A DNA stretch of 64,000 nucleotides from the sequence record PQ036202, one strand, 5' to 3'. Position 1 is the first letter of the stretch; every line of letters starts with the position of its first letter. This document shows, one piece after another, positions 60,275 to 60,419 of this stretch. A program made the position numbers and the translations under genes. Under the pieces are notes generated by a model. The model saw only the letters and a program-made list of their open reading frames with translations. It made no database searches and was not told the DNA's origin. Source of the DNA: Escherichia phage GEP101.

Positions 60275-60419
60275 TAATTATCTTTGTAGATAAGTTATTA
60301 AGCTTACCTGTGAGTATGCGACCACAAAGGGTGAAAGGGTAAATTCTAGATTTAAACCCAACAAGGCACATCGCTACAGACCTTAAGCAAGTCTGGGTAG
60401 CTTATCTACAAAGATAATT
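60275..60419 (+). repeat. 19-bp perfect inverted repeat enclosing 106 bp
   Basis: TAATTATCTTTGTAGATAAG (60275-60294) vs CTTATCTACAAAGATAATT (60401-60419); internal CAGAC/GTCTG hairpin. Confidence 0.5.

What the first reader, a model, noticed from the sequence alone, without database searches (positions are those of the whole stretch)
60275..60419. 19-bp perfect inverted repeat bracketing 106 bp inside the tRNA array
TAATTATCTTTGTAGATAAG and its complement flank a segment that itself contains a CAGAC-CTTAAGCAA-GTCTG hairpin, echoing the AGACC/GGTCT boxes of the neighbouring modules. It may be a long structured RNA, an extended stem of the adjacent Y-RNA-like element, or a miniature inverted-repeat insertion.
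Basis: seen in the sequence. Interest (0 to 1): 0.4.

Follow-up and report, generated by a model that had tools for sequence, protein, structure and literature searches.

The report
Stem-clamped structured RNA in phage tRNA array
The inverted repeat is real: it closes a conserved, unannotated RNA of about 145 nt that sits among the tRNA genes of Felix O1-like phages and is most likely a processed structured RNA, not a jumping DNA element.

Summary
A perfect 19-bp inverted repeat (60276-60294 / 60401-60419) extends to a 24-bp helix, P1, around a 96-nt core that contains the CAGAC-CUUAAGCAA-GUCUG hairpin, P5.

The window comes from a Felixounavirus tRNA array. The element, E, lies between a YrlA-like module and tRNA-Lys(UUU). 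It occurs once per genome, in about 255 of 258 related phage records, and is never annotated as RNA.

Compensatory changes and G-U pairs seen only on the + strand show that P1 and P5 are RNA helices. A loop-to-junction pseudoknot is supported by a single compensatory swap.

Two alleles, A and B, share the outer 12 bp of P1 and have near-identical flanks, but their interiors are only 48-57% identical. A probable third form occurs in Pectobacterium phages, which lack both the Ro60-like gene and the Y-like modules.

In those phages the same outer arms, AATTATCTTTG/CAAAGATAATT, flank tRNA-Asn. P1 is therefore partly a cargo-independent leader-trailer helix. I infer that it acts as an RNase III-type processing and end-protection stem.

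The function of the core is unknown. The MITE reading and the "extended Y-RNA stem" reading are rejected. E matches no Rfam family. I rate it a new variant of a known kind, of moderate interest.

The parts
60276..60419 (+). Whole element E: about 144 nt of structured non-coding RNA (allele A)
   Evidence: Fold z = -4.8. No Rfam family matches. Present in 195 phage records as allele A and 60 as allele B, one place per record. Mean identity among 19 allele-A contigs is 98.7%. No ORF is conserved across alleles.
60276..60299 (+). P1, 5' strand (24 nt; the first 19 nt are the perfect repeat)
   Evidence: Of 23 aligned pairs, 4 show changes on both sides and 98.2% of cells are paired. G-U pairs occur on the + strand only.
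60396..60419 (+). P1, 3' strand
   Evidence: Same calls. It is followed by the spacer TAAT (60420-60423) and then tRNA-Lys(UUU) from 60424.
60276..60286 (+). Outer, cargo-independent arm AATTATCTTTG (pairs with 60409-60419)
   Evidence: Identical in alleles A and B, whose interiors differ. The same pair of arms flanks tRNA-Asn in Pectobacterium phages Arno18 and Wc4.
60409..60419 (+). Outer arm CAAAGATAATT, followed by TAAT and the next tRNA
   Evidence: The 17-nt stretch CAAAGATAATTTAATGG also follows tRNA-Asn in Arno18.
60302..60306 (+). Junction segment GCUUA, candidate pseudoknot partner of the P5 loop
   Evidence: Allele A pairs GCUUA with UAAGC. Allele B pairs GCUAA(A) with (U)UUAGC, a compensatory U-A to A-U swap. 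The P type pairs CUUGCUUA with UAAGCAAG. The segment sits at about nt 26-34 in all three.
60304..60335 (+). P2 hairpin (predicted only), containing the YRUGAGU stretch shared by A and B
   Evidence: MFE folds. There is no convincing covariation, and it overlaps the pseudoknot segment by 3 nt.
60337..60359 (+). P3 hairpin with apical AUUCUAGAUU
   Evidence: The apical sequence is invariant in A and B. In allele B the lower stem covaries: C-G to U-A, and U-A to U-G to C-G (read from the alignment).
60365..60375 (+). P4, a weak 3-bp hairpin
   Evidence: Present in the MFE only and lost in some allele-A variants. Low confidence.
60377..60395 (+). P5 hairpin CAGAC / GUCUG with the 9-nt loop CUUAAGCAA (60382-60390)
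   Evidence: The stem covaries: CAGAC/GUCUG, CAGACC/GGUCUG, CAAACC/GGUUUG, CCGUC/GAUGG, CCAUC/GAUGG. The loop is C-UU(A/U)AGCAA in all types.
60143..60275 (+). Context: YrlA-like module M4, which abuts E on its 5' side
   Evidence: Closing helices, the UUACAGCAA hallmark, and T-arm, acceptor-like stem-loop and D-arm in the YrlA order. 98-100% identical between allele-A and allele-B Felixounavirus genomes (82-88% in SUSP2 and ESh21).
60424..60499 (+). Context: tRNA-Lys(UUU). Its RNase P site would set the 3' end of E 4 nt after P1
   Evidence: ARAGORN and Rfam. E sits immediately 5' of tRNA-Lys(UUU) in the A, B and P types.

Best explanation
E is a + strand, co-transcribed, structured non-coding RNA cassette within the polycistronic tRNA / Y-like RNA array of an Ounavirinae phage.

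Its 24-bp terminal helix has two layers. The outer 11-12 bp (AAUUAUCUUUG / CAAAGAUAAUU, then UAAU and the next tRNA) form a cargo-independent leader-trailer helix, and related phages use the same arms around a true tRNA. The inner ~12 bp are specific to the cargo.

Inferred mechanism, not shown:
- The helix forms in the precursor and serves as a double-strand processing signal and insulator, of the RNase III type, like the leader-trailer stems of rRNA operons.
- After RNase P cuts 4 nt downstream at tRNA-Lys, the helix locks both ends of the released RNA against exonucleases.
- The ~96-nt core folds into 3-4 hairpins, tied together by a pseudoknot between the P1/P2 junction and the near-invariant 9-nt loop C-UU(A/U)AGCAA of the last hairpin.
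- The product would be a stable RNA of about 120-145 nt with its own function.

That function is still unknown. It does not depend on the phage Ro60-like protein.
For: Shown:
- The helices are RNA on the + strand. 98.5% of cells are paired against 33-43% when partners are slid. Five pairs change on both sides. Single-side changes give G-U pairs on the + strand.
- The P5 stem covaries in five versions under a constant loop.
- The pseudoknot register and position are kept in three types, with one compensatory transversion.
- Conservation matches the tRNAs: E 98.7%, M4 99.4% and tRNA-Lys 99.3%, against 89.9% for M3 and 89.7% for the spacer.
- No ORF is conserved.
- E is single-copy and at a fixed position in 195 + 60 records.
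- The outer arms are identical around tRNA-Asn in Arno18 and Wc4, where they pair the leader with CCA plus trailer.
- Other leader-trailer helices occur around tRNA-Ser(UGA) (61688-61701 / 61790-61803), around tRNA-Met in phiEa21-4-like phages, and in a 26-bp hairpin abutting tRNA-Leu.
- Arno18 carries an E-like element but no Ro60-like gene or modules.

Inferred:
- RNase III involvement rests on helix length (at least 22 bp) and on my own knowledge of rRNA processing stems and of the reported RNase III step in T4 tRNA cluster processing.
- Co-transcription rests on promoter-like sites at 59083-59203 and 60673-60701 and no terminator in between.
Against: - I found no transcript or cleavage data for any Felixounavirus.
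- Helix length alone does not prove RNase III cleavage, and antideterminant positions were not evaluated.
- The pseudoknot rests on a single compensatory event. In allele A it overlaps the predicted P2 by 3 nt.
- A covariance model built from alleles A and B does not detect the Pectobacterium (P) or phiEa21-4 (K) forms. Their homology rests on architecture, the identical loop, the pseudoknot and the position before tRNA-Lys.
- One natural phage (L149) lacks E, so it is dispensable at least there.
- No function is demonstrated for the core.
Confidence: 0.55

Rival explanations
1. E is a fifth Y-RNA-like ligand of the phage Ro60-like protein (ORF 57649-59064, the ortholog of Bas63 gp130). Its P5 hairpin would be a minimal copy of the binding site carried by modules M1-M4, and E would add a different effector domain to the RNP.
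For: - E lies 1.2 kb downstream of the Ro60-like gene and directly after four modules.
- In alleles A and B, P5 and its flanks read AC-AGACC-UU(A/U)AGCAA-G(G)UCU-G(G/C)-GUAG. The module ends read AC-AGA-AGACC..UUACAGCAA ... GGUCU-G-GU.
- The UUACAGCAA hallmark accompanies DUF2828 Ro-like genes in five other phage groups.
- A preprint reports that gp130 is structurally Ro60-like and counters the Ppl defence.
Against: - Pectobacterium phages keep the same loop in an E-like element but have no Ro-like gene and no modules.
- The motif lacks the C and sits in a hairpin loop that probably forms a pseudoknot.
- The module-like lower helix is 8 kcal/mol worse than the extended P1.
- In Arno18 the P5 stem is not AGACC/GGUCU.
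- E has no tRNA-like domain and no GNCGAA-type motif.
Confidence: 0.2
2. E is only a processing spacer. The helix separates the Y-like cluster from the downstream tRNAs, and the interior is filler that is degraded after cleavage.
For: - The same arms serve a tRNA cargo in relatives.
- The interior differs greatly between alleles, at 48-57% identity.
- A second long hairpin with a small interior abuts tRNA-Leu.
- E is missing from one natural phage.
Against: - Within allele A the interior is conserved as strongly as the tRNAs.
- The loop, the pseudoknot segment, AUUCUAGAUU and YRUGAGU are kept across alleles.
- A simple hairpin would be enough for processing.
Confidence: 0.15
3. The core is a trans-acting RNA that uses its conserved loop to pair with another RNA. 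Candidates are the anticodon loop of the phage tRNA-Ser(GCU) (UUGCUAA) and the apical loop of the second long hairpin (61957-62046, UUGUUGCUUA).
For: - The allele-B loop UUAGCAA is the exact complement of the 7-nt anticodon loop of the phage tRNA-Ser(GCU).
- The allele-A loop UAAGCAA is complementary to UUGCUUA in the loop of the 61957-62046 hairpin.
Against: - Neither partner covaries. The tRNA loop is the same in A- and B-type phages. The hairpin loop in B-type phages (UUGCUUU) keeps only 5 complementary nt.
- The intramolecular pseudoknot uses the same loop bases and does covary.
- Short complementarities like these are expected by chance at the few-percent level.
Confidence: 0.06
4. E is a miniature inverted-repeat mobile element, or a DNA-level palindrome such as a protein-binding site, an origin of replication or a recombination site.
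For: - It has terminal inverted repeats of 19-24 bp around a short non-coding interior.
- The interior has been exchanged between otherwise identical genomes.
Against: - There is one copy per genome and no other copy of the arms.
- The flanks are GGT and TAA, with no target-site duplication.
- E is always at the same site, and no E. coli genome carries a copy.
- Substitutions in the arms give G-U pairs on the + strand, which would be A-C mismatches in DNA or on the other strand.
- The only absence is a deletion between two T-arms that also removes half of M4 and most of tRNA-Lys.
Confidence: 0.03

Closest known systems
Leader-trailer processing stems of bacterial rRNA operons (RNase III substrates)
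   Same: A long helix forms between sequences on either side of a structured RNA cargo inside a polycistronic precursor. Here the helix is reused around different cargos: the E core in this phage and tRNA-Asn in Arno18. It lies next to RNase P and A/U-rich sites.
   Different: The cargo is about 100 nt rather than an rRNA. The context is a phage tRNA array. No cleavage has been shown. In E the helix is continuous with a cargo-specific stem.
Phage T4 stable RNAs species 1 and 2 (rnaC, rnaD) in the T4 tRNA cluster
   Same: They are non-tRNA stable RNAs of 119-139 nt, encoded and co-transcribed within a phage tRNA cluster, with unknown function.
   Different: There is no similarity in sequence or fold. 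rnaC is tRNA-like, with a T-arm and short paired ends. Neither has a 24-bp clamp or the UU(A/U)AGCAA loop.
Bacterial Y RNAs (YrlA, YrlB, Yrn1) bound by Ro60/Rsr
   Same: E is encoded close to a Ro60-like gene and beside YrlA-like RNAs. Its 5' and 3' ends pair in a long stem, and its size is similar. Its hairpin resembles the hallmark of the neighbouring modules.
   Different: The stem carries no Ro-binding motif of the GGUCCGA or GNCGAAN0-1G type, and E has no tRNA-like domain. An E-like element also persists in phages that lack any Ro-like gene. The protein here is DUF2828/DUF7788 and does not hit Pfam TROVE.
Miniature inverted-repeat transposable elements (MITEs)
   Same: A short non-coding unit bounded by terminal inverted repeats.
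   Different: E is single-copy, has no target-site duplication, stays at a fixed locus, and shows RNA-type covariation with G-U pairs.

Membership tests
Y RNA / YrlA | Stem formed by the 5' and 3' ends carries the Ro60-binding motif (GGUCCGA-like, or GNCGAAN0-1G in YrlA) | tested here: not met
   P1 is AAUUAUCUUUGUAGAUAAGUUAUU paired with its complement. It contains no such motif (motif definition from PMC4201824).
Y RNA / YrlA | tRNA-like domain (T arm, acceptor-like stem, D arm) | tested here: not met
   No tRNA or other Rfam hit in 60275-60419 at E <= 5, and ARAGORN calls nothing there. The neighbouring M4 does have T and D arms.
Y RNA / YrlA | Encoded next to a Ro60 ortholog | tested here: inconclusive
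   Met in this window: the DUF2828+DUF7788 ORF at 57649-59064 is the ortholog of Bas63 gp130. However, the E-like element in Arno18 occurs in a genome with no detectable Ro-like gene.
Y RNA / YrlA | Physically bound by Ro60/Rsr | not testable with these tools
   Requires RIP or CLIP of the gp130 ortholog.
UUACAGCAA modules (M1-M4 type, found next to DUF2828 genes) | Two-tier closing helix with an AGA/G internal loop, then UUACAGCAA 3' of the upper helix, then a variable interior | tested here: not met
   E's P5 reads UUA-AGCAA (no C) in a closed 9-nt loop with no interior. The module-like lower helix GCUAC/GUAGC costs +7.8 kcal/mol relative to the MFE. There is resemblance but not membership.
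MITE | Terminal inverted repeats | tested here: met
   19 bp perfect, 24 bp including G-U pairs.
MITE | Target-site duplication | tested here: not met
   The flanks are ...CTGGT | AATT...AATT | TAATGG. There is no direct repeat of 2 nt or more.
MITE | Multiple copies, and presence/absence with precise boundaries | tested here: not met
   One place per record in 195 + 60 records, and the arms are unique in the window. The only absence is a T-arm to T-arm deletion.
RNase III substrate | About two turns (at least 20-22 bp) of nearly regular dsRNA | tested here: met
   24 bp in allele A, 23-25 bp in allele B, and about 25 bp with two mismatches in the P type.
RNase III substrate | Staggered cleavage in the helix that depends on rnc | not testable with these tools
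   I found no transcriptome for these phages. Needs in vivo or in vitro cleavage mapping.
Any Rfam 15 family | Covariance-model match | tested here: not met
   No hit over E at E <= 5, nor over the P-type and K-type elements at E <= 1.
T4 species 1/2 RNAs | Sequence or fold similarity to rnaC or rnaD | tested here: not met
   Model R1 finds nothing in the T4 tRNA locus, and the folds differ.

The most novel reading that the evidence does not exclude
E may be a new class of phage effector RNA. In this reading it is a hypervariable, cassette-exchangeable core held in a standard processing clamp. Its conserved UU(A/U)AGCAA loop would dock onto a host or phage partner, and it would act in counter-defence or in manipulating tRNA metabolism. 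Candidate partners are a factor shared with the Ro60-like/Y-RNA system that counters Ppl, or a tRNA anticodon loop. The replacement of allele A by allele B between otherwise identical genomes would then be the trace of an arms race.
Probability: 0.12. Interest if true: 0.75.

Novelty: new variant of a known kind. Interest (0 to 1): 0.45.

Why it matters
Felix O1-like phages are classical typing phages and candidates for phage therapy, yet this RNA is annotated in none of about 300 genomes. In several it is covered by spurious "hypothetical protein" ORFs, for example bas63_0138.

The element shows that phage tRNA arrays carry non-tRNA cargo inside reusable leader-trailer helices. That gives a concrete, testable model for how such arrays are matured.

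It also sits beside a Ro60-like protein that a preprint reports as an anti-defence factor, and beside that protein's probable Y-RNA partners. Defining which neighbouring RNAs belong to that RNP, and which, like E, probably do not, narrows the search for how the system works.

Tried and rejected
- **Loose IMG/VR pattern.** A pattern based on the arms returned mostly chance matches, and only about 10 were true homologs. The motifs are too short for a specific scan of the collections, so I did not use the metagenome or genome scans.
- **Covariance model.** Model R1, built from alleles A and B, did not recover the Pectobacterium or phiEa21-4 forms. Their homology remains an inference.
- **Host origin.** No E. 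coli genome matches E.
- **T4 rnaC and rnaD.** No similarity.
- **Module-like alternative fold.** Folding the 3' part as a module costs 7.8 kcal/mol more than the MFE.
- **Pairing with the second long hairpin or with tRNA-Ser(GCU).** Complementarity exists but does not covary.
- **Antisense targets in the window.** Nothing above chance.
- **Coding potential.** The ORFs over E are not conserved between alleles.
- **PDB sequence search with the Ro-like ORF.** No hit. Its likeness to Ro60 rests on the preprint and on GenBank product names.
- **Literature.** I found no Felixounavirus transcriptome. The PhageMaP text does not mention g137 or g138, and its supplements are not held.
- **Other known RNA types.** Reading the sequence against what I know of hammerheads, retron msr-msd, ToxI-like antitoxin repeats and CRISPR-repeat mimics showed no convincing match, and Rfam was negative.

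Full report
**1. What is there**

The window is part of a Felixounavirus genome (Felix O1-like, Ounavirinae): the region around the finding matches 258 phage records, most of them at 90-99% identity. From 59230 to 63798 it carries 23 tRNA genes on the + strand.

The finding lies between a tRNA-like module that ends at 60275 and tRNA-Lys(UUU), which starts at 60424. The perfect 19-nt arms are at 60276-60294 and 60401-60419, with exactly 106 nt between them. With G-U pairs the helix (P1) reaches 24 bp, 60276-60299 with 60396-60419.

The arm sequence occurs nowhere else in the 64 kb window even with 3 mismatches, and 0 of 100 shuffles give two matches. The fold is far better than shuffled sequence, with z = -4.8.

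**2. It is an RNA, read from the + strand**

I collected 26 distinct versions from GenBank phages and IMG/VR contigs.

On 17 aligned sequences of alleles A and B, 98.5% of the P1 and P5 cells form standard pairs, against 33-43% when the partners are slid by 1-3 columns. Five pairs change on both sides.

Single-side substitutions in P1 almost always give G-U or U-G on the + strand. These would be A-C mismatches in DNA or on the opposite strand.

The P5 stem exists in five covarying versions under a near-constant loop, C-UU(A/U)AGCAA: CAGAC/GUCUG, CAGACC/GGUCUG, CAAACC/GGUUUG, CCGUC/GAUGG and CCAUC/GAUGG.

No ORF is conserved across alleles. The "hypothetical proteins" drawn over the element in some records, such as bas63_0138, are therefore spurious.

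Among 19 allele-A contigs, E is 98.7% identical on average. That is like M4 (99.4%) and tRNA-Lys (99.3%), and well above the neighbouring module M3 (89.9%) and the spacer (89.7%).

**3. Architecture of the core**

All versions have the long P1, then 3-4 hairpins, then P5 directly before the 3' strand of P1.

A short segment just after the 5' strand of P1 is complementary to the P5 loop, in the same register and at about nt 26-34, in every type:
- allele A: GCUUA with UAAGC;
- allele B: GCUAA(A) with (U)UUAGC;
- the Pectobacterium type: CUUGCUUA with UAAGCAAG.

The A-to-U change in the loop of allele B is matched by a U-to-A change in the segment. This is one compensatory event, so the pseudoknot is likely but not proven.

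The apical AUUCUAGAUU of P3 and a YRUGAGU stretch are shared by A and B. The lower stem of P3 covaries within allele B. P2 and P4 are predictions only.

**4. Alleles and distribution**

- Allele A (this window) is in 195 records, all Felixounavirus.
- Allele B is in 60 records: other Felixounavirus, Suspvirus and Mooglevirus.
- Together these cover about 255 of the 258 records that hold the flanks.

In Felixounavirus genomes that carry B, the flanks are nearly identical to the window (M4 98-100%, tRNA-Lys 100%), but the interior of E is only 48-57% identical. The change begins right after the outer 12 bp of P1. This looks like the replacement of a cassette rather than gradual drift.

Four Pectobacterium phages (Arno18, Wc4 and relatives) have a 170-nt element of the same build, the P type. 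It has a terminal helix of about 25 bp, a different interior, the identical loop CUUAAGCAA and an 8-bp pseudoknot, and it too sits directly before tRNA-Lys(UUU).

phiEa21-4-like Erwinia phages have a 182-nt element with a 23-bp terminal helix, the K type. Its outer sequence resembles the P type, but it lacks the loop motif.

The covariance model built from A and B finds neither P nor K. I treat P as a probable relative and K as a possible one.

No Rfam family matches any of these forms, and no E. coli genome holds a copy.

**5. Not a mobile element, and not part of the neighbouring Y-like RNA**

E has one copy per genome, no target-site duplication and a constant position. The single E-less genome I found (L149) carries a deletion between the T-arm of M4 and the T-arm of tRNA-Lys. 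That deletion also removes half of M4 and most of the tRNA.

M4 closes on itself with two helices (UUAC/GUAA and AGACCGU/ACGGUCU), and E begins at the next base. Arno18 has an E-like element but no M4-type module. Across its whole genome it also has no relative of the Ro60-like protein, by tblastn and by Pfam on its large ORFs.

**6. The key clue to P1**

With filters off, the covariance model picked up the same outer arms in Arno18 and Wc4, AATTATCTTTG ... CAAAGATAATT followed by TAAT and the next tRNA. There they flank tRNA-Asn, and the leader pairs with the CCA end plus the trailer over 12 bp.

The outer half of the "perfect inverted repeat" is therefore a cargo-independent leader-trailer helix that related phages use around a real tRNA.

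Similar helices occur elsewhere:
- around tRNA-Ser(UGA) in this window, 14 bp at 61688-61701 / 61790-61803;
- around a tRNA-Ser-like gene in Arno18 and around tRNA-Met in phiEa21-4-like phages;
- in a 26-bp hairpin at 61957-62046 that ends one base before tRNA-Leu(UAG), z = -6.4.

The 3' arms share AAAGAU(AA)UUUAAU followed by the next tRNA.

**7. How it most likely works**

Shown: E is a conserved, + strand, pseudoknotted RNA fold clamped by a helix of at least 22 bp, and the outer part of that helix is a reusable flanking signal.

Inferred: the array is transcribed from the promoter-like sites at 59083-59203, and the next such site is at 60673. P1 forms in the precursor.

A regular helix of two turns is the hallmark of an RNase III substrate. 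From my own knowledge, the leader-trailer stems around 16S and 23S rRNA work this way, and an RNase III step has been described in the maturation of the T4 tRNA cluster. Cleavage in P1, together with RNase P cleavage 4 nt downstream at tRNA-Lys, would free E, separate the Y-like cluster from the tRNAs, and leave E with both ends locked in a helix.

tRNA-like conservation of the interior argues that the released core has a function of its own. What that function is cannot be read from the sequence. I put 0.9 on "structured + strand RNA", about 0.5 on the RNase III-type role of P1, and no more than 0.2 on any specific role for the core.

**8. Relation to the Ro60-like system**

The ORF at 57649-59064 carries DUF2828 + DUF7788. 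It is the ortholog of Bas63 gp130. A preprint reports that gp130 is structurally Ro60-like and counters the Ppl defence, and speculates that some "tRNA genes" downstream are Y RNAs (PMC11482910).

The four modules M1-M4 share a two-tier closing helix, an AGA/G internal loop and the motif UUACAGCAA. M4 also has T, acceptor-like and D arms in the YrlA order.

The same UUACAGCAA, AUACAGCAA or UAACAGCAA modules lie beside DUF2828 genes in Klebsiella phage FBKp34, Aeromonas LAh_6 and Campylobacter F368; Vibrio XZ1 and Cronobacter LPCS28 each show a single UUACAGCAA or ACAGCAA site there. They are absent from Ounavirinae that lack the gene.

In alleles A and B, E's P5 resembles a minimal module. Four points argue against E being a ligand of this protein:
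- the C of the motif is missing;
- the motif sits in a loop that probably forms a pseudoknot;
- the module-like fold costs an extra 8 kcal/mol;
- the loop persists in phages with no Ro-like gene.

I rate that reading at 0.2.

**9. Verdict**

E is an undescribed RNA family restricted to Ounavirinae. In kind it is closest to the stable non-tRNA RNAs of phage tRNA clusters, and in mechanism to rRNA-type leader-trailer processing stems. I class it as a new variant of a known kind, of moderate interest. Transcript mapping and genetics in Bas63 or Felix O1 would settle the open points.

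Noticed in passing
window 59398-59480 (M1), 59565-59641 (M2), 60049-60136 (M3), 60139-60280 (M4); also L007 6538-6850, L198 1552 and 3719-3915, L199 6163, L200 3830-3902, L197 3971: Four modules share this build: lower helix (NNAC/GUNN, covarying), AGA/G internal loop, upper helix AGACCNN/NNGGUCU, then UUACAGCAA and a variable interior. M4 carries a YrlA-type T/acceptor/D domain. The same UUACAGCAA-type modules lie next to DUF2828 (Ro60-like) genes in Klebsiella, Aeromonas and Campylobacter phages; Vibrio XZ1 and Cronobacter LPCS28 each show a single motif site. They are absent from Ounavirinae that lack the gene, and Rfam does not detect them. They are probably the Y-RNA partners of this protein family.
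   Followed up: partly
window 57649-59064 (+): This 471-aa ORF carries DUF2828 + DUF7788. It is the ortholog of Bas63 gp130, which a preprint reports as structurally Ro60-like and a counter to the Ppl defence. Homologs occur in 709 phage records across many host phyla. It has no sequence-level match in the PDB.
   Followed up: partly
window 61957-62046 (+): A second long hairpin (26-nt arms, 85% complementary, 38-nt interior, z = -6.4) ends one base before tRNA-Leu(UAG). Its apical loop UUGUUGCUUA is complementary to E's loop in allele-A phages but only over 5 nt in allele-B phages. Its arms resemble those around tRNA-Ser.
   Followed up: partly
window 61688-61701 and 61790-61803: A 14-bp leader-trailer helix encloses tRNA-Ser(UGA) and extends its acceptor stem. 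Comparable helices enclose a tRNA-Ser-like gene that ARAGORN does not call in Arno18 (L006 2642-2752), tRNA-Asn in Arno18 and Wc4 (L006 1385-1480), and tRNA-Met in phiEa21-4-like phages (L161 9148-9244).
   Followed up: partly
L149 9759-9995 (IMGVR_UViG_2706796742_000001): This natural Felixounavirus variant lacks the 3' half of M4, all of E and most of tRNA-Lys(UUU). The deletion arose by recombination between the two T-arm sequences (GGTTCGATTCC / GGTTCGAATCC).
   Followed up: yes
window 61024-61102 (+), with the upstream region 60660-61020: Rfam scores this stretch as a tRNA (31.7 bits) but ARAGORN does not call it. It has a UCU anticodon loop and an 18-nt insertion relative to the tRNA-Arg(UCU) found at this position in pSJ21 and Bas63. 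The 350 nt upstream hold a strong promoter-like site (60673-60701), a 14-bp hairpin (60957-61016) and weak tmRNA-model hits (E = 0.1-0.4).
   Followed up: partly
L006 about 1720-1838 (Arno18, just upstream of its E-like element): A tRNA-like element of about 120 nt has paired ends (GCCTGT/ACAGGC), a T-arm and a long internal insert. Its build recalls T4 species 1 RNA (rnaC). ARAGORN does not call it.
   Followed up: no
L161 7922-8103 (phiEa21-4-like phages; 36 GenBank records, all at least 99% identical): A 182-nt unannotated element with a 23-bp terminal helix lies between tRNA-Ala and tRNA-Met. Its outer arms resemble those of the Pectobacterium E-like element, but it lacks the UUAAGCAA loop.
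   Followed up: partly
window 61121-61468 (+): An HNH endonuclease ORF lies inside the tRNA array. Related phages carry HNH homing endonuclease genes at other positions in the array, which is consistent with the mosaic pattern of tRNA alleles seen here (for example tRNA-Asp and tRNA-Ile are about 50% identical between some genomes).
   Followed up: no
L205 3249-3523 (Bas63) and several other GenBank records: Small minus-strand "hypothetical protein" CDSs (bas63_0137, bas63_0138) are annotated over M4 and E. They are not conserved between alleles and are almost certainly not genes.
   Followed up: yes
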